Shown in pieces: positions 3-32,000 of a DNA stretch of 32,000 bases (positions are counted from its first letter, which is position 1; each line of letters opens with the position of its first letter). A model generated the notes under the pieces. The model was not told where the DNA came from and made no database searches. It saw only the letters and a list, made by a program, of their open reading frames with translations. Source of the DNA: Candidatus Thorarchaeota archaeon (GTDB lineage Archaea; Asgardarchaeota; Heimdallarchaeia; Hodarchaeales; Hodarchaeaceae); contig JBHLRO010000012.1 in the NCBI GenBank assembly GCA_048882505.1, positions 60,001 through 92,000 of the forward strand, read 5' to 3'. The translations under genes and the position numbers were made by a program.

Positions 3-1925
3 CTGGGTCCTGACATTGTTGCGCCAGGTGTTAATATTTCATCTTATAATCATGATGGAATTCCTGTCCGTGGCTCGGGCACGTCTTTTGCAGCTCCATT
101 CGTTACTGGGGCCGTTGCTCTCCTTCGAAGCAATGACGCATTCCCCACCGCCCCACCTAGCCTCATTAAAGCGGCTTTGATGGAAGCAGCAGTGGCATTG
201 AACGACACTCCCCCGATATTGCAGGGGAACGGTTTTCTGAACATTTCTGGAGCCTATGAACGGTTGAAAACGCTACCTGTGTCCCCGTTGTTCTCATTTT
301 CCCCCAAGACGCTATCATCAAGTTTTCCATACTTCGGCCATGGAATAAACGGTATTACGCAGAAATACCGGATTGGTTTATACAGTTCATCGTCGAATGT
401 TACTCTAAAATCCATGAATTCCTCTTTTATTAGCCCTGTAGAAGTATCCATTGGCTTATTGCCGCTTTCTATCGTCAGAGGAGTAAATTTCCTGAATTTG
501 TCTTTATTTATTCCTAATGATGTCGCTATGAACCTTTACGAGGGCCCGCTCATCTTTAGTTTTGCTAATGAAACCATGGAATGGAATATCAATATGACGG
601 TAATGGTTAGAAATCATTACCAAGGAGGGAAGATTCTGTTCTATCAAGGCTATGATAATGACACATTTAGGTCATCAGGACCTGCAGGAACATATAGTCA
701 ATTACAGCTGTTCCTATCGGAATATTACGGAATGTCGGTGACTGGATTAATTCCCCCTGAAAGCTTCTTATCTTTAGGAGGAACCCTTGTCCGGACATCG
801 GAAAGAAAACTGACTTCTGAAGATTTGGAGGGTTTTAATGCACTCGTTTTGGCCGATATTGAGTGGGGAATTTCGGATGAGGAGATCGCCCTCATTCAAG
901 ATTGGGTGGCCGAAGGTCATTCTTTACTTGTTCTCTCTTATCCTTCATGGACAGATAACGAAGGATCGGAATTGTTCTCAAACCAGACCGCAATAAACCG
1001 ACTCCTTGAACCCTACGGAATAATGATTGACGATGATCCTTCCCTTTCAGGGATGCAGAATCCTTGGTTTCCTAGGTTTAAGGAGGCCAAACTACGCCCC
1101 ATAAATCCATTAACTGCAGACGATCAAGTACAAGAAGTTGAATTCAGCTACAATGGAACGTCCTTATCATTACTACCAAGTTCGGGGGCGCAAGTCCTGG
1201 CAACAGCCCCTGACCTTACAAACAATTCTTTTGAAGTTCCTGTTGGAGCATATTGGCAAGATAATACTTCTACTGGAAAAGTATTAGTTTTTGGGAGTGA
1301 ACTCCCGTTTAAGGATGGCAGCTACTCCCTAAGCAGTGCGGCATCAAATGTAGTGATAGCTATTCGGACGTTCCGATGGTTGATTGAAGATCAACGGATT
1401 CCACTTGAATTGTTACTCACCTCTAATCCAGTGGTAGGATCCGCAACGACTATCCAAATTAAGATTGAGGATCCAAGTTTTTTGGTGTCCCAATTTAACG
1501 GAACGGTTGTTGAATCCAACGGGTCCTTTAGTCAAATAATATTTACAAGATCGATTAATGTGTATGTTGGTTCATGGATACCCCAGGCTCAGGGTTTCGC
1601 GTTTCTTTGGTTGAATTTGGGTTCATCGGGTGGCATTCAATCTGGTGGTCCTTTTATCGTCGAAGTAATGGATCCTGCATCATCAAACCTCCTCTTCCTG
1701 ATGATTTTTGGAGGTATTGCTTTACTGGGCCTCTCTTTCTACCTCTATTCATCCCGACAGACGCCTCAAGGATCCCCTCTTGACAGAAGACTTATGGTTC
1801 TTCAAAAACAAAAAAAGGGAACCAAAAAGGTCAGTCTTGAAACCGCTTCAATATGTACAAAATGTCGTACGCCTCGTTACAAGGATAATTCAAAATATTG
1901 TTGGAATTGCGGGAAGGAACTGTAA
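3..1925 (+). CDS. Membrane-anchored subtilisin-like S8 protease (5'-truncated by the window) with Ig-like region, GIFT/GATase-like domain, TM helix and cytoplasmic zinc ribbon; site-1-protease-like layout
   Basis: The frame is open from base 3: LGPDIVAPGVNISS...GSGTSFAAPFVTGAVALL...LIKAALMEAA...QGNGFLNISGAYERL, which includes the catalytic Ser motif, so the ORF-track start at 177 is internal. GIFT-like segment FNALVLADIEWGISDEEIALIQDWVAEGHSLLVLS; TM LLFLMIFGGIALLGLSFYLY; C-terminal CTKC...CWNC. Confidence 0.88.
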   Translation: MGPDIVAPGVNISSYNHDGIPVRGSGTSFAAPFVTGAVALLRSNDAFPTAPPSLIKAALMEAAVALNDTPPILQGNGFLNISGAYERLKTLPVSPLFSFSPKTLSSSFPYFGHGINGITQKYRIGLYSSSSNVTLKSMNSSFISPVEVSIGLLPLSIVRGVNFLNLSLFIPNDVAMNLYEGPLIFSFANETMEWNINMTVMVRNHYQGGKILFYQGYDNDTFRSSGPAGTYSQLQLFLSEYYGMSVTGLIPPESFLSLGGTLVRTSERKLTSEDLEGFNALVLADIEWGISDEEIALIQDWVAEGHSLLVLSYPSWTDNEGSELFSNQTAINRLLEPYGIMIDDDPSLSGMQNPWFPRFKEAKLRPINPLTADDQVQEVEFSYNGTSLSLLPSSGAQVLATAPDLTNNSFEVPVGAYWQDNTSTGKVLVFGSELPFKDGSYSLSSAASNVVIAIRTFRWLIEDQRIPLELLLTSNPVVGSATTIQIKIEDPSFLVSQFNGTVVESNGSFSQIIFTRSINVYVGSWIPQAQGFAFLWLNLGSSGGIQSGGPFIVEVMDPASSNLLFLMIFGGIALLGLSFYLYSSRQTPQGSPLDRRLMVLQKQKKGTKKVSLETASICTKCRTPRYKDNSKYCWNCGKEL

Positions 1926-1927
1926 TA

Positions 1928-2842
1928 ATGCCACCCGCTAGGAAGCCACGAATTTTAACGCACACCGATATGGATGGCGTTTGCTGTGCTGCCCTCTTCA
2001 TACGAAAGTACGGAACAGACGTGGACATTACTTATGCGACAGTTAAACAGGCACACGAATTTGATAAGTCTCAGATCTCATTTGATTTTGTTTGTGACTT
2101 ACCTAAGGTAGGAAATGCAATAAACCTAGATCATCACAAATCAAATCACGAAAATCTGGTGGCGAGAAATCATCTTTCTTCGGAGGACATTGTTGATTCC
2201 CAGTCCCCTTCGGCAACTGAAATCGTATACAATTACTTAGATTTCAAGGGTGACGTCATAGCCAGCGAAATTAGAAAACTTGGGAATCTAGCTGATACGG
2301 CTCAACTACCCTCAAAGTTTCGTCCATTAGATGTAGTATTAAGTATGTTCGCAGATACGCCCACGATTTTAAGACAAATCAGCGCCCTTCTAGCGCAACA
2401 CGGGGATGGAATTCTGCTTTCTCCTTGGTTGAAGGAGAAAGAGGGCGAGATTCGAGAAGTATTCGAACAAACACACAAAACGATTGAAAATTTTCTGAAG
2501 AAGGCTCCTAAACTTGCCCCGATTCTTATTCTGGACACAAGGAACGTAATCCCAGGAAAATTAGCAAAAGAAGTAATCAAACCAATTTTCGAATTAGGAG
2601 TCGCAGTATTGGCCGTAATATATCAAAAATCTTCGGATGAGCCCATACGGGTTTCTTTTCGTGTAACCAAAGGCAAACAACAGGATTATGATGTTTCTCT
2701 GACTGCGATGACATTCGGAGGAGGAGGACATAGCATGGCCGCCGCTTGCTCTCCCGATAAAATGGACATTCCCACAAACCTCAAGAATGAACTTCGAAAG
2801 ATCGCTCTTCCAGGAGACAATATTCAATACTTGCACCTCTAG
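1928..2842 (+). CDS. DHH/DHHA1-family phosphoesterase (NrnA/RecJ-like)
   Basis: Motifs HTDMDG, CDLP, NLDHHK and C-terminal GGGGHSMAAA. ATG at 1928 lies 2 nt after the upstream stop. Confidence 0.85.
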   Translation: MPPARKPRILTHTDMDGVCCAALFIRKYGTDVDITYATVKQAHEFDKSQISFDFVCDLPKVGNAINLDHHKSNHENLVARNHLSSEDIVDSQSPSATEIVYNYLDFKGDVIASEIRKLGNLADTAQLPSKFRPLDVVLSMFADTPTILRQISALLAQHGDGILLSPWLKEKEGEIREVFEQTHKTIENFLKKAPKLAPILILDTRNVIPGKLAKEVIKPIFELGVAVLAVIYQKSSDEPIRVSFRVTKGKQQDYDVSLTAMTFGGGGHSMAAACSPDKMDIPTNLKNELRKIALPGDNIQYLHL

Positions 2843-2854
2843 GACGGTTAAATC

Positions 2855-4051
2855 TTGCGAATCGGAATCTTCTCAGATTCTTGGGTACCTAACCTAAATG
2901 GTGTTGTTATTTCGATAATTAATGAGATAATGAATCTCCGTAAAAAACATGAATTTGTAGTCATTGTTCCAAAACTAAAACAGAGAACCAGGTTTAGAAT
3001 AGAAGGAATCCCGATTTATGAGCTCAAAAGTTTTCCTTTCCCCCCTTATCCTGGCTATAACATCGCTTTTCCTGACAGGAAGTTAAGCCACGCAATACGA
3101 GACGAAAAACTAGATTTTATCCATTGTCATTCCCCTTTTTCCCTAGGATACGCAGCCGTGCTTAGTGCGCGTTTGTTTAATGATTTACCATTACTGAACA
3201 CGTATCACACCGACCTGGTTAAATACTCAGGTCATTTGATAGGAGGATTCCAAGCTAAAAGATTCACACGATGGTTTGAACGTTTTGCGTGGATATATGT
3301 TCGCTGGTTTTATAAATATTCTAATGTAATAGTAACTCCTTCAAAAACCTTACAGCAGGCCCTGAGCTCCCACGGAGTTTTCCCCGTTTATTCTCTCCCA
3401 AACATGCTGTCTAGTGTTTTTTTCTCGACACCTAAGAACGATGAAGTCGAGGCTTTTCAAGCCGAAATCCGTGATAGATTTGCAATTCCGTCTGCTTCTC
3501 GAATAATCCTTTATTGCGGCCGTGTTTCCTACGAAAAAAAGTTGGAAGTCCTCCTAAACGCATTCAAACGGATAGAAAAGGAACGAAATGATGTTTATCT
3601 CCTAATCATTGGTGACGGGCCTCATTTGCAGATGTACAGAAACCAAGCCAAGAGCTTGAACCTCAAACAGATTGCATTCACGGGCTTTATTAGCCACACG
3701 AAACTTCCTCTCGCTTATCGAATGGGAACGTTTATGGTTACCCCATCAGATACGGAAACCCAAGGCCTTACTGTGATCGAAGCTATGAGCCAAGGACTAC
3801 CTGTTATTGGAGTATCGGAGGGGGGAGTAATGGATTACATTGAAAATGGAATAAATGGGTTTTTGGTACCTCCTGGAGATGATGAAGCGCTTGCCAAGAT
3901 GATTGTACGACTATTAAATCAACCTGAACTGGTTTCTGAGTTCAGCCAAGCAGCCACAAAAACTGTAAAGAAGTTCTCTAGAGAAGGGTTTATTTCTCAA
4001 CTAGAACACGCGTTCCGAATCACTATTTCTCGTCACAGTGGAAGGGATTAG
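2855..4051 (+). CDS. GT4 glycosyltransferase, similar to bacterial monoglycosyl-diacylglycerol synthases
   Basis: N-terminus MRIGIFSDSWVPNLNGVVISI, IHCHSPFSLG, TYHT, CGRVSYEKK and EX7E motif ETQGLTVIE. TTG start. Confidence 0.88.
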   Translation: MRIGIFSDSWVPNLNGVVISIINEIMNLRKKHEFVVIVPKLKQRTRFRIEGIPIYELKSFPFPPYPGYNIAFPDRKLSHAIRDEKLDFIHCHSPFSLGYAAVLSARLFNDLPLLNTYHTDLVKYSGHLIGGFQAKRFTRWFERFAWIYVRWFYKYSNVIVTPSKTLQQALSSHGVFPVYSLPNMLSSVFFSTPKNDEVEAFQAEIRDRFAIPSASRIILYCGRVSYEKKLEVLLNAFKRIEKERNDVYLLIIGDGPHLQMYRNQAKSLNLKQIAFTGFISHTKLPLAYRMGTFMVTPSDTETQGLTVIEAMSQGLPVIGVSEGGVMDYIENGINGFLVPPGDDEALAKMIVRLLNQPELVSEFSQAATKTVKKFSREGFISQLEHAFRITISRHSGRD

Positions 4052-15029: not shown

Positions 15030-15167
15030 ATATTCCTATTGATTTCGAAAATGAAAAAAATGCTCATTAGAGAAAAAGTGATCTGAAGAGAAACACTCTT
15101 GTAAAAAATTTCAAAGGATGGATAATTGATTCAGGACTCTTATATTGCTGGAAGTGGCGTTGTACTT

Positions 15168-15710
15168 ATGAAGCAGAAGCTTGTGCTCAAATTAGTTCTT
15201 TTAGGAGACCCTGGTGTCGGAAAAACATCGTTGATTTCTCAATTTGTACATGCGAGATTTAGAAATAGCTACCAGCTGACTGTAGGCCTTGATATTTCCT
15301 CCAAGCAGGTAAAACTAGATGATGGTAGGGTTGTAACACTCAGTATCAACGATATCGGCGGTCAGGCTAGGTTTGCCGCTATTCGGCATATGTTCTTCAA
15401 GGGATCTCACCTAGCCATGTTAGTATATGATGTTACTAGGGAAGATACGTTGCAGAACATAATTGAACCCTGGTTTGCCGAATTACAGGAATTCTGCAAT
15501 CAACCTGATGTTTCTAAAGTCCAGACGATTCTTGTGGGAAACAAGGCTGATCTTGAAGACTATAGAATGATCGAAGAAGAAGAGGGAAATGTTGTAGCAA
15601 AGGAAATCAACGCCATTAGTCATATTATCGCTAGTGCTAAGGAAAATCAGAATGTGGACATCGCGTTTAAAACCCTGGCTGAAGCATACTTTAGAGAGAC
15701 AAAAAGGTAG
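15168..15710 (+). CDS. Rab-like small GTPase (Ras superfamily)
   Basis: G1 GDPGVGKTS, G2 YQLTVG, G3 DIGGQARF, FFKGS, LVYDVT, G4 GNKAD, G5 SAKE. Confidence 0.95.
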   Translation: MKQKLVLKLVLLGDPGVGKTSLISQFVHARFRNSYQLTVGLDISSKQVKLDDGRVVTLSINDIGGQARFAAIRHMFFKGSHLAMLVYDVTREDTLQNIIEPWFAELQEFCNQPDVSKVQTILVGNKADLEDYRMIEEEEGNVVAKEINAISHIIASAKENQNVDIAFKTLAEAYFRETKR

Positions 15711-28032: not shown

Positions 28033-28428
28033 GTGGATGAGGAGTCGATACTGCCTTTCATTAATGTTTCTTATATGGACGTTCTTGAGTCTCTTGGTAG
28101 CCCAGAAAGTGTAATTAGGTTACTAAAAACCAAGAAAATAAATCCAAAGGAGGCCGATTTTCTAGAAATTTTAGGTAGTTACATAAAGAGTCAAAATGAA
28201 ACCATTTTAAATACCATACGAGATTTATGTAACATACATTTTGGGGATCAAGGGGACGATGCATTCGAGAAGATTAAACGTTTTCTCGAAGGGCAAACCA
28301 GGGTTGCCTGGGTTATTTTCAGTCGACATTACCATAAAATCGATTTTGATGACCGTAACCCCCTCGAAGATTATCATCCCCGTATGTCAGAAGTCATTAT
28401 TGTCCATTTCAAATACAAGGTAATGTGA
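28033..28428 (+). CDS. Hypothetical protein, first gene of a 3-gene operon
   Basis: GTG start; its stop overlaps the next gene in a GTGA 4-nt overlap. Confidence 0.6.
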   Translation: MDEESILPFINVSYMDVLESLGSPESVIRLLKTKKINPKEADFLEILGSYIKSQNETILNTIRDLCNIHFGDQGDDAFEKIKRFLEGQTRVAWVIFSRHYHKIDFDDRNPLEDYHPRMSEVIIVHFKYKVM

Positions 28429-30239
28429 ATGCCATGGGTTCTGAAAAGTGTTCTGCCCTAGCCAACGAGGCAGAAGCAGCTTCCAAACATTCGCTGGACA
28501 TCGCTTCGAGTATTTATGAGGAAGCAGCAAGCTGTTATGATAAAGAAGGAGATAGACGTAAATCAGGTCAATTCCTGACGTTAGCAGGGGATCTGTTCCT
28601 TGAAATTAATAAGCATGATCAGGCTGCAACCTGTTATGGAAAAGCCATTTTACGATACCTGATGTCAGGGGATATTGAGACAGCCCAAATCCTCATAAAT
28701 AAAGGCGGAGAATATGGCTTCTCCTCTGCGAACCACCATTATAGAATCGCGATTGATTCATTGGAACGGCGGAAGGAGACGAAATTAGAAACAGAGGCCG
28801 CATTAGAAGAAAGTACGGCTGAAGAATGGATGATTGAAGAGGAATCTCTTCCAGAAGTGGAAATCATGCCGCTCGACGATGAAGAGCAGTTGATTACCCT
28901 GGAAATGGATGATATTCTCGATAAAGAGGATATTCAGATAAGGAAGCAGAATTTTGTCATCCCCCAGCTCGAAGTTGAGGATCCTTCGAGGGTGGGATCG
29001 TTTGCGGTTTTGGCTGCAGTTTCCCGAACTACTCGGGAATTGACCAGCCAAGACCAGCAGTTTATCCAAACCAATGCCGTGATACAGGATGCTTTAGGAG
29101 AGACCAAAATAATAGAACCGAAAATCACCATGTCACCAGTTAAGATAGCAGAAAGCGAAAGATCGGAGTTCTTTGAACTTTCCGAAACAATCACGACCGA
29201 AATCATGGGGGTTTCGTCTTTAGAGAATGAGGATTCAATAACAGATTCTTTAAATGGAACTTCAAACCTTGAATATCCTGATACATTAGATTTCGAGTAT
29301 TCAGGAAAAACTGAGATTGTAAACGAATATGCAGAAGAAATACATAACATTGAAGTAGTTGATACGATTCCCTTTCAGTGGCAGGTAATCGATGTTAAAT
29401 CAGATTTTGATCTAGAGAAGAAACACCGAACAAGTGAGGGATTAATCTATACATGGAAAAAAGATAGGATCTTACCTGGAAGAAAAATGGGAGTTGAATA
29501 CACACTACGAAAACGGGTTGAAAGGTCAATTGTCCTGAGAAAGGAGAACCAAGTATCAGTGTTGAATCTTTATCATTCTGTTCAAAAGGATTTAAAAGCC
29601 CAAATGGAGTTTGTTAACACAACGGGGAACTATTTCGAGGAAATTTTGATAGAAGATGTAATTCCGCCCGAATTGGTTGTGGTTCAGGCGACATCGGCTC
29701 AAGATATCAAACCAATTGCACTTCCAACTAATGATTCCACGTTATATCGATGGATTTTTAGCAGGTTACCTCCAGGTGAAACCTTTTCTGTAACCTACTT
29801 GTTTCGTGAAAAACCTATAACCAGATGGTATATACAGGAGATTGAATCTGAAAAAGGGATAGTAAAAGTAGAGAAGATTTCTCAACCTTTTGTTGATTCG
29901 AGACGATCCGAATATATCTGGATGTATCGAATCACTAATCCGATTTTAGATGAACTGCATATCGATGACAGGATTCCAGGTGATTATGAGATTGCCCTTG
30001 TAGAACCACCTCATTTGAGACCTTCGTTAACCATGAATGGAACTCATAAGGTTCTTAGTTGGAAGTTACCTCAGGAGTCAACAAACGAAGTCGTATTGAT
30101 TCGGATCTCTGGAAGCGAGTCTTTCACGCCCTTGGCGCCCGAAATTCATTTTTCACGGCTCGGAAAACCCCAGCTGGTTGAGAGAGGGGCTCAATCCCAC
30201 CGAAAGGTAATCGATTTTCGTAAAATACAAGAAGAATAG
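28425..30239 (+). CDS. Alpha-SNAP-like TPR N-terminus + acidic linker + three tandem DUF11/Ig-like repeats; no signal peptide
   Basis: ASSIYEEAASCY...KSGQFLTLAGDLFLEINKHDQAATCYGKA; E/D-rich middle; three repeats of pattern i.v.D.IP....v...........l.W.....PG....v.Y. Confidence 0.7.
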   Translation: MNAMGSEKCSALANEAEAASKHSLDIASSIYEEAASCYDKEGDRRKSGQFLTLAGDLFLEINKHDQAATCYGKAILRYLMSGDIETAQILINKGGEYGFSSANHHYRIAIDSLERRKETKLETEAALEESTAEEWMIEEESLPEVEIMPLDDEEQLITLEMDDILDKEDIQIRKQNFVIPQLEVEDPSRVGSFAVLAAVSRTTRELTSQDQQFIQTNAVIQDALGETKIIEPKITMSPVKIAESERSEFFELSETITTEIMGVSSLENEDSITDSLNGTSNLEYPDTLDFEYSGKTEIVNEYAEEIHNIEVVDTIPFQWQVIDVKSDFDLEKKHRTSEGLIYTWKKDRILPGRKMGVEYTLRKRVERSIVLRKENQVSVLNLYHSVQKDLKAQMEFVNTTGNYFEEILIEDVIPPELVVVQATSAQDIKPIALPTNDSTLYRWIFSRLPPGETFSVTYLFREKPITRWYIQEIESEKGIVKVEKISQPFVDSRRSEYIWMYRITNPILDELHIDDRIPGDYEIALVEPPHLRPSLTMNGTHKVLSWKLPQESTNEVVLIRISGSESFTPLAPEIHFSRLGKPQLVERGAQSHRKVIDFRKIQEE

Positions 30240-30248
30240 AAGGAGACC

Positions 30249-32000
30249 ATACTAACGTCCGAATCGATAAATAAACCAGGTATAGATTTAGCTGTTCTGG
30301 CTGTCCAATGGGATGAAATTAGTGGCCCCTCCATTATTTCCCTGTTCCCTCCTTCGGTGCTGAAAGACCCGGAATCAGTGGCCCTACAGATATATTTAGC
30401 ATCAGTAACAGTGTTTGGACAACATGGCCAGTCACAAAGAACTGAATTCTCTGTTCCTTTACTAAGCCTTGGTCAGGACGTTATTGCTCGTGTTGCCTTT
30501 GATTCATGGGAAGATGCGGATATTCGTGGCAAAGAGAGACCATTCTTTCTAGCATTCATTACTGGGGGTCAAACTAACGACTTATTGGGTCCTCATCTAG
30601 ATATTAATATTTTCGATTATTTAAACCAACTTAAGACTAAGGAAACCAATTTTGTTGCCAAGGAAATTTGGACTGTGCTTTCTGAACGAGTTTTAACAAA
30701 TGTTCCAGTTGAATCGATAGATAATAAAGATTTATCATATGAGACTTACTCCATTAAGGATGCACTTCAAGATCTGAAAACAGCGCATGAAGCTTGGGAT
30801 AAAACACAAGATAGAAACCAGTTGTGGACTGCCATACGCGTCGCAAATAAATTAGAAAACATAGATGACAATGCCGCCGGTCAGGCTTTCAATTTGGTTG
30901 GTACCATTTTCTTAGCTGGCAAGAACTACCACGAGGCCAAGGAGGCATTTGAACAGGCTACTAGTGCTTTTGGTCGTGCCCGTTTGTTCAATGATTCGGG
31001 CCAATCATCAGCATTAGCAGGAAAGTGTGCGTTTTATCTGGCTAATCTAGATGAAGCAATCGAATTTCTTCAGGGTGGAGTTCTGTGGGTAAAAGGAGAG
31101 GACAAACTTGCCTCGATTAATTTTGATATGGCAAGTGCATTGCATGCTAAAGAGCGATTCGAAGAATCCTATGTATATTTTGAAAAAGCAATCACCGCTG
31201 CCACGGGAGTAGATCCACACATCGCAGCTGAATATTCTGCAACCTACGCTAGCAGACTTATGAGTCATGCGGATAGTGTAAGAAACAAGAATCTTACTCT
31301 GAGCCAAGATTTAATTAGACGATCTGCAACCCAACGTGTCTCAGCAGCTCGCCTCTTATCCAAATCAGGAAACCCCCGTGAAGCAGCTAGTTCGTTAATT
31401 CTAGCGGGTAATGCGTTGCTATCGTTGAAAGATATAAGGGAAGGATGCGATAAGTTAAGAGAAGCTGCAGATCTATTTATTGAAGCGAACGATTATTCTT
31501 CCGCTGCAAGGGCTTTATACAATGGTGCCCGTAATATCAAGGATCCCAAAAGTTCTGACGAACTCCTTAGCAGAGCCATCAATCTATTGAAAGAGCATGA
31601 AACAGAGCAAAATTATCATACGTTGGGTCTCCTATTCTTTGAAAAGGGAAAAATCGAAACCAAGCGGCAGCAAATTGTCAAATCTATCCTATCTTTTGAA
31701 CAATCATCCGAATTTTTGACTCAGGCCCAAATAAAGGGTATTGAACTCTTCTCCATATATATCCAATTGGCCAACAATCATTTCAAATTAGAATCCTTTG
31801 AACGAGCCGCATTATCATTTTTTAAGGCCCATAATTCCTTAGCGGAGGCACCTAGACGGGGAAACTTAGAGGATCAGTACCAAAAAGCGTTTCTAAATGG
31901 CTTGATAAGTTTACGTCGTGCAAGTACCGTATACCACAATGCAGGAATCGTGGCTCTTCAAAATAAGGAAGAAGGTCGAGCACTCGATTTGTTTGGTCGA
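30249..32000 (+). CDS. uDENN/longin domain + long TPR/SNAP-like solenoid (3'-truncated by the window; absent from the ORF track; start codon non-canonical or uncertain)
   Basis: My translation is open from 30240 to the window end: ILTSESINKPGIDLAVLAVQWDEISGPSIISLFPPSVLKDPESVALQIYLASVTVFG...FDSWEDADIRGKERPFFLAFITG...AFNLVGTIFLAGKNYHEAKEAFEQA... AGGAG at 30241-30245 precedes ATA 30249. Confidence 0.8.
   Translation, partial: MLTSESINKPGIDLAVLAVQWDEISGPSIISLFPPSVLKDPESVALQIYLASVTVFGQHGQSQRTEFSVPLLSLGQDVIARVAFDSWEDADIRGKERPFFLAFITGGQTNDLLGPHLDINIFDYLNQLKTKETNFVAKEIWTVLSERVLTNVPVESIDNKDLSYETYSIKDALQDLKTAHEAWDKTQDRNQLWTAIRVANKLENIDDNAAGQAFNLVGTIFLAGKNYHEAKEAFEQATSAFGRARLFNDSGQSSALAGKCAFYLANLDEAIEFLQGGVLWVKGEDKLASINFDMASALHAKERFEESYVYFEKAITAATGVDPHIAAEYSATYASRLMSHADSVRNKNLTLSQDLIRRSATQRVSAARLLSKSGNPREAASSLILAGNALLSLKDIREGCDKLREAADLFIEANDYSSAARALYNGARNIKDPKSSDELLSRAINLLKEHETEQNYHTLGLLFFEKGKIETKRQQIVKSILSFEQSSEFLTQAQIKGIELFSIYIQLANNHFKLESFERAALSFFKAHNSLAEAPRRGNLEDQYQKAFLNGLISLRRASTVYHNAGIVALQNKEEGRALDLFGR

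What the first reader, a model, noticed from the sequence alone, without database searches (positions are those of the whole stretch)
30249..32000. SMCR8/folliculin-type uDENN(longin) domain fused to a long TPR solenoid, missed by the ORF track
Seen: an open frame of more than 580 codons running off the window. Its N-terminal ~130 aa has three blocks that match SMCR8/FLCN-type longin domains as I recall them. LAVQWDEISGPSIISLFP ~ ILISEFSEQVGPQPLLTIP; DPESVALQIYLASV ~ DLNYFSLRIMSV; WEDADIRGKERPFFLAFIT ~ LYDLEARGFVRPFCMAYIS. Knowledge: uDENN/longin modules of SMCR8-C9orf72, FLCN-FNIP and NPRL2/3 act as GAP or GEF platforms for Rag/Arf/Rab GTPases, and in FLCN the Arg of the ARG motif is the GAP arginine finger. 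The equivalent IRG Arg is kept here. Inference: a GTPase regulator that uses a TPR/SNAP solenoid as scaffold instead of the cDENN/dDENN lobes. Longin domains are known in Asgard, but this fusion and the retained finger deserve a look.
Basis: partly seen in the sequence, partly recalled or inferred. Interest (0 to 1): 0.75.

Follow-up and report, generated by a model that had tools for sequence, protein, structure and literature searches.

The report
Asgard GAP-type longin fused to TPR
A Hodarchaeales (Asgard) archaeon encodes a conserved ~640-residue protein whose head has the fold and signature residues of the folliculin/SMCR8/NPRL2 domain that switches off small GTPases, joined to a long TPR scaffold. 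The domain class is already published, but this fusion, its three-gene operon and the missing normal start codon here were not found described.

Summary
Observation confirmed. The frame is open from 30240, directly after the TAG of the upstream gene, to a stop 186 bases beyond the window (648 codons). The ORF track misses the first 39 codons because no ATG/GTG/TTG precedes GTG 30357.

Residues 15-150 fold with pLDDT 88 as a longin. The best structural matches are NPRL2, a Lokiarchaeal longin, Lst4, FLCN and C9orf72/SMCR8. W24-D25-x3-G29-P30 and R96-G97 are invariant in the orthologues and kept in about 90% or more of 127 distant relatives. R96 lies in the beta4-beta5 loop, where the FLCN and SMCR8 arginine fingers lie. 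Residues 165-648 are an ordinary TPR solenoid with weak alpha-SNAP likeness.

Of 144 family representatives, 24 carry an Arf-like GTPase domain in the same chain. This supports a role in GTPase regulation. GAP activity, the partner GTPase and dimerisation remain untested.

Asgard NPRL2-like or FLCN/SMCR8-type longins with the GP motif and arginine are already published (2020, 2025). This scan has also reported the orthologous longin-TPR protein on another genome (e1-5444074).

Specific to this locus: the gene is under purifying selection (dN/dS 0.11) although it and its sister species lack any canonical start codon.

The parts
30240..32000 (+). Open frame of the longin-TPR gene. It continues to a stop at window-equivalent 32184-32186 (648 codons counted from the upstream TAG).
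   Evidence: orthologues of 636-657 aa cover 98% of it
30237..30239 (+). TAG stop of the upstream 604-aa gene. It is in the same frame as the longin-TPR frame and is the only stop between the two.
   Evidence: same letters in an independent run
30255..30284 (+). Candidate non-canonical start region. ACG 30255 is conserved in the sister genome, with GGAG 9 nt upstream. ATA 30267 and ATA 30282 occupy the two positions that are ATG in same-genus relatives.
30282..30689 (+). Longin domain (residues 15-150), with topology beta-beta-alpha-beta-beta-beta-alpha-alpha.
   Evidence: AF2 pLDDT 88.2, pTM 0.84; fold matches
30309..30329 (+). W24-D25-x3-G29-P30 motif at the end of beta1 and start of beta2. 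It has the same spacing as C9orf72 W33-D34 and G38-P39.
   Evidence: motif definition in PMC12290439
30525..30539 (+). R96-G97-K-E-R100 in the beta4-beta5 loop. R96 is the candidate arginine finger.
   Evidence: invariant in orthologues; R in 119 of 127 distant representatives; loop position versus SMCR8 R147 / FLCN R164
30732..32000 (+). TPR / SNAP-like helical-hairpin solenoid (residues about 165-648; it runs past the window end).
   Evidence: Pfam TPR_8/TPR_12/TPR_2/SNAP; profile versus PDB: consensus TPRs, then alpha-SNAP/Sec17 at E 4e-9 to 3e-7
28425..30239 (+). Upstream operon gene (604 aa). It has a weak SNAP-like N-terminus and a C-terminal half resembling DUF11/Ig proteins. It is a conserved neighbour.
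   Evidence: synteny
28033..28428 (+). First operon gene (131 aa). It is a conserved small protein of no known family.
   Evidence: synteny

Best explanation
The gene encodes a cytosolic regulator of a small GTPase, most likely of the Arf/Rag-like group.

Its N-terminal longin domain belongs to the class that in eukaryotes forms the catalytic platform of the folliculin, C9orf72-SMCR8 and GATOR1 GTPase-activating complexes.

Inferred mechanism:
- The longin pairs with a second longin, most simply another copy of itself.
- The WD-x3-GP face and the beta4-beta5 loop form the GTPase-binding pocket.
- Arg96 is inserted as an arginine finger to speed GTP hydrolysis.
- The roughly 480-residue TPR solenoid replaces the DENN lobes as a protein-binding scaffold. 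It probably holds the two proteins encoded just upstream in a conserved three-gene operon.

Shown: the fold, the motifs, their conservation, the TPR tail, the operon, fusion of the family to GTPase domains, and purifying selection.

Inferred: GAP activity, dimerisation, the identity of the GTPase, and what the TPR binds.

In this species and its sister the gene has no canonical start. It is probably translated from a near-cognate codon, coupled to termination of the upstream gene.
For: - Fold: AF2 with 49 orthologues gives pLDDT 88 and longin topology.
- Foldseek top hits are NPRL2 chains of GATOR1 (E 2e-5) and a Lokiarchaeal longin, followed by Lst4 and FLCN.
- VIA-align Z scores: 12.4 for 8yqg, 11.4 for Lst4, 10.8 for FLCN (6nzd_H), 9.2 for the C9orf72-SMCR8 entry. 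SNARE, AP and TRAPP longins score 7-8.7.
- ESM Atlas neighbours carry NPR2, Folliculin, SMCR8 or Arf Pfam families.
- Motifs: W24, D25, G29, P30, R96 and G97 are invariant in orthologues. In 127 distant representatives W is kept in 124, G in 125, P in 109 and R in 119.
- R96 lies in the beta4-beta5 loop, as SMCR8 R147 and FLCN R164 do.
- GTPase link: 24 of 144 representatives have an Arf-like GTPase domain in the same chain, and all 19 with the order GTPase-longin keep RG.
- A paralogue in this genome lies beside a histidine kinase and a Ras-like GTPase. Another lies beside a Roadblock gene and reaches the Pfam Folliculin cut-off region at 22-23 bits.
- Scaffold and operon: TPR. The order 127-131 aa, then about 590-720 aa, then longin-TPR is kept in Hodarchaeales and in a 30%-identical clade.
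- Selection: dN/dS against the sister species is 0.11 over the whole gene and 0.16 over codons 6-39.
Against: - No Pfam family matches the N-terminal domain, even at E 10. Only 3 of 121 family members touch Pfam Folliculin, weakly.
- Sequence profiles do not reach FLCN, SMCR8 or NPRL2 in the PDB. The only related hit is C9orf72 at E 0.65, which is not significant.
- Residue-level superposition of R96 on R164, R147 or R78 could not be done. The equivalence rests on the loop position and the RG motif.
- No GTPase gene lies in the operon or within 10 kb in orthologous loci.
- Most longin domains in eukaryotes are GEF platforms or adaptors, not GAPs.
- The closest non-TPR relatives (order longin-GTPase) have mostly lost the arginine, 4 of 5. 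The domain can therefore function without it.
- A gene without a canonical start might be poorly expressed.
Confidence: 0.5

Rival explanations
1. The longin domain is a non-catalytic GTPase-binding platform, acting as a GEF, effector or localisation module as in DENN, Mon1-Ccz1, TRAPP or Ragulator. The conserved WD/GP/RG residues then serve binding or folding, not catalysis.
For: - Roadblock, DENN, CPLANE, Mon1-Ccz1 and TRAPP longins also match at Z 7-9.
- Longin-GTPase fusion relatives lack the arginine in 4 of 5 cases.
- Most characterised longin platforms are GEFs (PMC10933270).
Against: - The best matches are the GAP-type longins.
- The GP motif is reported to be absent from non-GAP longins.
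- The arginine is kept in 119 of 127 distant members and in all 19 GTPase-longin fusions.
Confidence: 0.2
2. The domain is a signalling or adaptor module not tied to GTPases. It would be a ligand- or peptide-binding output/input domain of two-component-like pathways, here presented on a TPR protein-interaction scaffold.
For: - 21 representatives are receiver-longin fusions. Others are longin-PAS(-histidine kinase) or longin-zinc-ribbon.
- PAS/LOV and GAF-like folds appear lower in the Foldseek list.
- No GTPase lies in the operon.
Against: - 24 of 144 representatives carry an Arf-like GTPase in cis.
- The receiver-longin paralogue of this genome lies next to a Ras-like GTPase.
- PAS/LOV matches have TM 0.3 and rmsd above 10.
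Confidence: 0.13
3. The operon encodes a coat- or adaptor-like assembly. A sigma/zeta-adaptin-like longin would sit on an alpha-solenoid. The neighbour would have a trunk, acidic hinge and beta-sandwich 'ear' layout, and the third component would be a small subunit.
For: - AP-3, AP-5 sigma and TRAPP longins match at Z 6.7-8.3.
- A solenoid follows the longin.
- The neighbour has a weak SNAP-like N-terminus, and its C-terminal half resembles DUF11/Ig proteins.
Against: - GAP-type longins match clearly better than adaptin sigma subunits.
- The WD-x3-GP and RG signature is that of GAP longins.
- No adaptin, clathrin or COP family was detected.
Confidence: 0.07
4. In this genome the gene is silent or decaying because its start codon was lost.
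For: There is no ATG/GTG/TTG between the upstream TAG and the conserved first strand, in this genome and in its sister.
Against: - The 648-codon frame is intact in both species.
- dN/dS is 0.11 at dS 0.56. Codons 6-39, upstream of the first canonical start, show 7 synonymous against 4 non-synonymous changes.
- A third same-genus genome also has ATA at the ATG position.
Confidence: 0.03

Closest known systems
Asgard 'NPRL2-like' / 'FLCN-SMCR8-type' longin domains (Liu et al., bioRxiv 10.1101/2020.10.19.343400; Traffic 2025, PMC12290439)
   Same: Same domain class: longin fold, a GP motif before beta2, and a conserved arginine in the same arrangement. It occurs in Heimdallarchaeia and is fused to two-component domains and GTPases.
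   Different: Here the domain is fused to a roughly 480-residue TPR solenoid and sits in a conserved three-gene operon. Neither feature is mentioned in the papers I could search. Public records name these proteins only 'tetratricopeptide repeat protein' or 'hypothetical'.
Folliculin (FLCN)-FNIP, C9orf72-SMCR8-WDR41 and GATOR1 (NPRL2-NPRL3-DEPDC5): eukaryotic longin GAP complexes
   Same: The longin fold matches at Z 9-11. The arginine lies in the beta4-beta5 loop followed by Gly. The GP motif is present. WD-x3-GP has the same spacing as C9orf72 W33-D34 and G38-P39.
   Different: - There are no DENN lobes or NPRL2 C-terminal domain; a TPR tail takes their place.
- No paired second longin gene lies in the operon.
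- One chain carries both the WD motif (C9orf72 side) and the arginine (SMCR8 side).
- No sequence-profile match above threshold.
- Activity is untested.
Lokiarchaeal Roadblock-Longin protein, longin domain dimer (PDB 8yqg)
   Same: It is the best structural match (Z 12.4, rmsd 3.2 over 134 residues), it is archaeal, and it was solved as a dimer.
   Different: Only 12% identity, and it was not found by the family profile at E 10. It has a different architecture (roadblock-longin, no TPR).
alpha-SNAP / Sec17
   Same: The Pfam SNAP model matches residues 371-556 at 29 bits (cut-off 25). Alpha-SNAP and Sec17 are the best natural PDB hits of the tail profile, at E 4e-9 to 3e-7.
   Different: Designed consensus TPRs score far higher (E 1e-56 to 1e-20), and several generic TPR Pfam models score as well as or better than SNAP. 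The tail is about 480 residues against about 290 in SNAP. No NSF-related feature was tested.

Membership tests
GAP-type longin domains (FLCN / SMCR8 / C9orf72 / NPRL2 and the Asgard NPRL2-like longins) | Longin fold (beta-beta-alpha-beta-beta-beta-alpha-alpha) | tested here: met
   AF2 model with pLDDT 88.2: strands 3-11, 15-22, 54-59, 67-77 and 85-95; helices 30-45, 96-123 and 126-139.
GAP-type longin domains (FLCN / SMCR8 / C9orf72 / NPRL2 and the Asgard NPRL2-like longins) | Closest structures are GAP longins rather than SNARE, adaptin or TRAPP longins | tested here: met
   Foldseek top hits are NPRL2 chains. VIA Z scores are 11.4 for Lst4, 10.8 for FLCN, 10.0/9.6 for SEA/GATOR1 and 9.2 for C9orf72-SMCR8, against 8.7 or less for VAMP7, Sec22, AP sigma and TRAPP.
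GAP-type longin domains (FLCN / SMCR8 / C9orf72 / NPRL2 and the Asgard NPRL2-like longins) | Gly-Pro motif at the loop/start of the second strand (PMC12290439) | tested here: met
   G29-P30 lie at the start of strand 2. They are invariant in orthologues, and in distant members G is kept in 125/127 and P in 109/127.
GAP-type longin domains (FLCN / SMCR8 / C9orf72 / NPRL2 and the Asgard NPRL2-like longins) | Conserved arginine in the beta4-beta5 loop (FLCN R164, SMCR8 R147) | tested here: met
   R96 (model residue 82) lies in loop 78-84 between strands 67-77 and 85-95. It is invariant in orthologues and kept in 119/127 distant members. Residue-by-residue superposition was not possible.
GAP-type longin domains (FLCN / SMCR8 / C9orf72 / NPRL2 and the Asgard NPRL2-like longins) | Sequence-profile membership (Pfam Folliculin PF11704 or NPR2 PF06218) | tested here: not met
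   There is no Pfam hit for residues 1-165 at E 10, and PF11704 does not ring on this gene in the genome scan. Link by a paralogue only: the C2 446-aa protein matches both the family profile (E 8e-11) and PF11704 (22-23 bits, cut-off 23.3).
GAP-type longin domains (FLCN / SMCR8 / C9orf72 / NPRL2 and the Asgard NPRL2-like longins) | Works as a longin-longin dimer | tested here: inconclusive
   One co-folding job on two copies gave no verdict (see Tried and rejected). It gives no information either way.
GAP-type longin domains (FLCN / SMCR8 / C9orf72 / NPRL2 and the Asgard NPRL2-like longins) | Arginine-dependent stimulation of GTP hydrolysis by a Rag/Arf/Rab GTPase | not testable with these tools
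   This needs a biochemical assay.
DENN module (uDENN-cDENN-dDENN) | Central and downstream DENN lobes after the longin | tested here: not met
   Residues 165-648 are TPR/SNAP-like helical hairpins, and no DENN family was detected.
alpha-SNAP / Sec17 family | Specific match to the SNAP profile, beyond generic TPR likeness | tested here: inconclusive
   Pfam SNAP scores 29 bits against a cut-off of 25, over residues 371-556. TPR_8, TPR_12 and TPR_2 score 34-35 bits. In the PDB, consensus TPRs far outrank alpha-SNAP.
TPR repeat proteins | Multiple 34-residue helical-hairpin repeats recognised by TPR profiles | tested here: met
   TPR_8, TPR_12 and TPR_2 are above their cut-offs. The profile hits 8 stretches of an engineered TPR at E 1e-56.

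The most novel reading that the evidence does not exclude
This single chain carries both halves of the eukaryotic catalytic pocket: the C9orf72-type WD-x3-GP and the SMCR8/FLCN-type Arg-Gly finger. It may therefore act as a homodimeric GAP. That would make it a living model of the state before duplication produced the SMCR8/C9orf72, FLCN/FNIP and NPRL2/NPRL3 pairs.

It would be mounted on a TPR scaffold in a dedicated three-protein complex. In this lineage it would be made without a canonical start codon, by reinitiation at a near-cognate codon or by read-through of the upstream TAG into a fusion of about 1250 residues.
Probability: 0.18. Interest if true: 0.7.

Novelty: new variant of a known kind. 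Interest (0 to 1): 0.45.

Why it matters
Longin GAP complexes (folliculin, GATOR1, C9orf72-SMCR8) control nutrient signalling and lysosome biology in eukaryotes, and are linked to cancer and ALS/FTD. Their origin is traced to Asgard longins of this class.

This protein is a widespread, well-conserved, soluble-looking archaeal member with every signature residue. It has a simple architecture and two fixed operon partners. That makes it a practical target for testing three open questions:
- whether archaeal longins really are arginine-finger GAPs;
- which GTPases they act on;
- whether one chain can do what eukaryotes do with a heterodimer.

The missing start codon, shared by two species under strong purifying selection, is a small separate puzzle about translation initiation or gene coupling in Asgard archaea.

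Tried and rejected
- **Co-folding of two copies of the longin domain** (complex prediction). No verdict (score 0.00). This is not evidence either way.
- **Pfam on residues 1-165 at E 10.** Nothing.
- **Family profiles against PDB sequences.** A2 and the beta-core profile A4 gave nothing relevant. A3 gave C9orf72 at E 0.65 over the full domain, which is not significant and ranked below spurious helix hits.
- **Pfam over 121 family domains.** Folliculin matched only 3, weakly.
- **TAG recoding by pyrrolysine.** Aragorn found no tRNA with a CUA anticodon, with or without intron search. No PylS is above cut-off. The genome is 94.5% complete, so absence is not proven.
- **Natural fused form of the upstream gene with this gene.** No homologue of 1135-3240 aa was found. 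The tool itself calls this weak evidence.
- **RNA evidence.** No RNA holder was listed. This says nothing about expression.
- **Gaps in Logan contigs.** Contigs of three runs break or leave gaps between 30205 and 30347. This may hint at strain variation at the junction but cannot be interpreted.
- **The 131-aa operon protein.** No Pfam match. Atlas neighbours fall below the lead threshold. The AF2 model reaches only pLDDT 69 and is helical, with the conserved C-terminal third unmodelled, so no fold search was run on it.
- **The 604-aa neighbour.** Only a weak SNAP-like N-terminus and look-alikes carrying DUF11/Ig or SNAP families.
- **Single-sequence search of the TPR tail against the PDB.** Nothing.
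It is Ras/Rab-type and 14.5 kb away, and no GTPase lies within 10 kb of the orthologous gene in the loci fetched, which do not reach the position equivalent to 15126-15710. I did not pursue it as a partner.
- **Choosing a partner among about 38 small GTPase ORFs in the genome**. This was too ambiguous to justify a co-folding job.
Full report
**Observation**

The window is G000:C12:60001-92000. The frame at 30240 is open to the window end. On the contig it runs to a stop at window-equivalent 32184-32186, giving 648 codons counted from the TAG (30237-30239) that ends the upstream 604-aa gene. The mechanical ORF list starts it only at GTG 30357. No ATG, GTG or TTG lies between the TAG and that GTG.

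Fifty-seven homologues were found, almost all labelled Hodarchaeales, Hodarchaeota or Heimdallarchaeota. They are 636-657 aa long, 45-51% identical, and cover 98% of the frame. The stretch upstream of 30357 is therefore part of the protein. The organism is an Asgard archaeon of the Hodarchaeales.

**The N-terminal domain**

Pfam finds nothing in residues 1-165, even at E 10.

AlphaFold2 with a 49-sequence alignment gives pLDDT 88.2 and pTM 0.84. The order of elements is beta-beta-alpha-beta-beta-beta-alpha-alpha, which is a longin fold.

Structural matches:
- Foldseek against the PDB puts NPRL2 chains of GATOR1 first (E 2e-5), with a Lokiarchaeal longin, followed by SEA-complex, Lst4 and FLCN chains.
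- An independent all-against-representatives alignment gives Z 12.4 for the Lokiarchaeal longin 8yqg, 11.4 for Lst4, 10.8 for FLCN, 10.0 and 9.6 for SEA/GATOR1, and 9.2 for C9orf72-SMCR8.
- SNARE, adaptin-sigma, TRAPP and roadblock proteins follow at 7-8.7.
- ESM Atlas neighbours are archaeal clusters partly carrying NPR2 or Folliculin Pfam labels, an archaeal Arf-fusion cluster, and eukaryotic SMCR8, NPRL2 and DENND6/Avl9 clusters.

**Signature residues**

In the orthologues W24, D25, G29, P30, R96, G97 and R100 are invariant or nearly invariant.

A profile search of 1.84 billion representatives found 144 relatives. Across the 127 distant ones, W24 is kept in 124, D25 in 109, G29 in 125, P30 in 109, R96 in 119 and G97 in 107.

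A 2025 study reports that a Gly-Pro motif at the start of the second strand, together with the arginine finger, marks the GAP-active longins SMCR8, C9orf72, FLCN and NPRL2. It reports the motif absent from other longins and present in Heimdallarchaeial longins. It also lists W33-D34 and G38-P39 of C9orf72 as pocket residues (PMC12290439). The spacing here, W-D-x-x-x-G-P, is the same.

SMCR8 R147 lies on the beta4-beta5 loop of its longin domain and corresponds to FLCN R164 (bioRxiv 10.1101/2020.04.16.045708). R96 lies in the loop between strands 4 and 5 of the model.

The arginine is therefore conserved and in the right loop. I could not superpose coordinates, so its exposure and exact equivalence are inferred.

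**Limits of the homology claim**

Sequence profiles do not reach the eukaryotic proteins. The only related PDB hit is C9orf72 at E 0.65. Only 3 of 121 family domains touch Pfam Folliculin.

There is one bridge. A 446-aa paralogue on contig C2 matches both this family's profile (E 8e-11) and Pfam Folliculin at 22-23 bits, just at the cut-off. The Pfam match spans the region of its 'VRGKNR' loop.

**Link to GTPases**

I sorted the 144 representatives by domains recognised with Pfam on samples and phmmer on the rest:

| Architecture | Representatives |
|---|---|
| Longin only | 66 |
| Longin-TPR | 27 |
| Receiver-longin | 21 |
| Arf-like GTPase followed by longin (often then PAS and histidine kinase) | 19 |
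| Longin followed by GTPase | 5 |
| Longin-PAS(-histidine kinase) | 3 |
| Longin-zinc-ribbon | 3 |

All 19 GTPase-longin proteins keep Arg-Gly. Only one of the five longin-GTPase proteins does.

This genome has five members of the family:
- this gene;
- a receiver-longin next to a histidine kinase and a Ras-like GTPase;
- the Folliculin-like 446-aa protein next to a Roadblock gene;
- a 940-aa open frame;
- the C-terminus of a 10,069-aa open frame.

Such fusions and the label 'NPRL2-like longin' are already in the literature (bioRxiv 10.1101/2020.10.19.343400; PMC10933270).

**The tail and the operon**

Residues 165-648 match several TPR models and the SNAP model (29 bits). A profile of the tail finds designed consensus TPRs first, then alpha-SNAP/Sec17 at E 4e-9 to 3e-7, then Rap phosphatases and APC subunits. 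It is an ordinary TPR solenoid with weak SNAP likeness.

The longin-TPR architecture (about 670-700 aa) recurs in divergent representatives, including Lokiarchaeial ones. These are annotated only as TPR or hypothetical proteins.

In Hodarchaeales the gene order is fixed: a 127-131-aa gene, then a 584-601-aa gene, then longin-TPR, followed by a convergent gene of about 750 aa and a family B DNA polymerase. A 30%-identical clade keeps the triad as 125, 720 and 644 aa. Two more distant longin-TPR genes do not.

The small protein is strongly conserved but gave only a medium-confidence helical model. The 604-aa protein has a weak SNAP-like head and look-alikes that carry DUF11/Ig or SNAP families. 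No GTPase gene is in the operon or within 10 kb in the orthologous loci.

**The start codon**

Same-genus relatives begin M-E-x-P-R/G-M-D-L-T-I-L-A-V, with two ATGs, 7-12 codons after the stop of the upstream gene. The two ATG positions in the three genomes that lack them:

| Genome | First ATG position | Second ATG position |
|---|---|---|
| Window (G000) | ATA (30267) | ATA (30282) |
| Sister species (89% identical) | ATC | GCA |
| Single-contig genome G015 | GTT | ATA |

None of the three has a canonical start before the first strand.

The gene is nevertheless under purifying selection between the window and its sister:
- dN/dS is 0.11 over the whole gene, at dS 0.56.
- dN/dS is 0.16 for codons 6-39.
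- The five codons right after the TAG show five non-synonymous changes and no synonymous ones.

ACG at 30255 is conserved in both species, with GGAG nine bases upstream. In several relatives ACG is the first codon after the stop.

In 12 of 15 loci the upstream gene and this gene share a frame, separated by one stop.

I found no tRNA(CUA), no PylS over cut-off and no fused long homologue. Contigs from an independent study carry the same TAG and ATA letters.

The most economical reading is initiation at a near-cognate codon coupled to termination of the upstream gene. Read-through into a fusion is not excluded.

**Novelty and verdict**

The domain class, its arginine and GP motif, and its fusion to GTPases and two-component domains are all published. 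I found no paper describing the longin-TPR fusion or its operon.

This scan had already reported the orthologous protein on another genome with the same conclusion (e1-5444074).

I rate this a new variant of a known kind, of moderate interest. The features specific to this locus are the loss of the canonical start in a gene that stays under selection, and the presence of both the C9orf72-type WD-x3-GP and the SMCR8/FLCN-type arginine in one chain.

Noticed in passing
G000:C10:95218-125424 (+), outside the window: An open frame of 10,069 codons, rich in Thr/Ser/Gly/Asp/Asn, with a hydrophobic N-terminal segment. Its last ~160 residues are a longin domain of this same family, with 'KGPQP' and 'EARGG' motifs. 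A 14,729-codon frame lies on C14:6854-51040 (-). The scan has a similar 'giant receptor with folliculin-like tail' report on another genome (e1-5394717).
   Followed up: partly
L007 (G000:C6:53366-56791): 2435-3220 (-), 1483-2382 (-), 668-1387 (+): A histidine kinase gene, then a 299-aa receiver-longin protein (the best family hit in this genome, E 6.5e-43), convergent with a 239-aa Ras-family GTPase gene. This looks like a two-component system whose output is a GAP-type longin next to a small GTPase.
   Followed up: partly
L009 (G000:C2:280063-283521): 566-1057 (+), 1438-2778 (+): A Roadblock/LC7 gene followed by a 446-aa protein whose longin matches Pfam Folliculin at 22-23 bits (cut-off 23.3) and keeps 'VRGKNR'. 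An Arf-like 313-codon open frame lies about 4.4 kb downstream (C2:287185-288123).
   Followed up: partly
window 30205-30347: Logan contigs of three metagenome runs from two studies all break or leave gaps inside this junction between the two genes. X1 shows a unitig overlap at 30210-30239, X2 a gap at 30270-30278, and X3 a gap at 30205-30347. This may reflect strain variation at the stop/start junction.
   Followed up: no
G000:C16:65699-65815 (also reported by aragorn at 58002-58095 of a contig I did not identify): Aragorn reports a tRNA-Sec (anticodon TCA), so the organism may use selenocysteine. With intron search it also reports a doubtful 'tRNA-Stop(tta)' at C16:50366-50502.
   Followed up: no
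window 15126-15710 (+): A 194-aa Ras/Rab-type small GTPase (Pfam Ras E 7e-45). It is one of about 38 small-GTPase ORFs in this 4.3-Mb genome.
   Followed up: partly
window 28033-28428 (+): The 131-aa first operon gene is highly conserved ('KKINPKEADLLE', 'RVSWVIFSR', 'DDRNPLEDYxPRVSEV') but has no known family. Its conserved C-terminal third is not modelled with confidence. It could be an extended segment that folds on a partner such as the TPR groove; this is speculation.
   Followed up: partly
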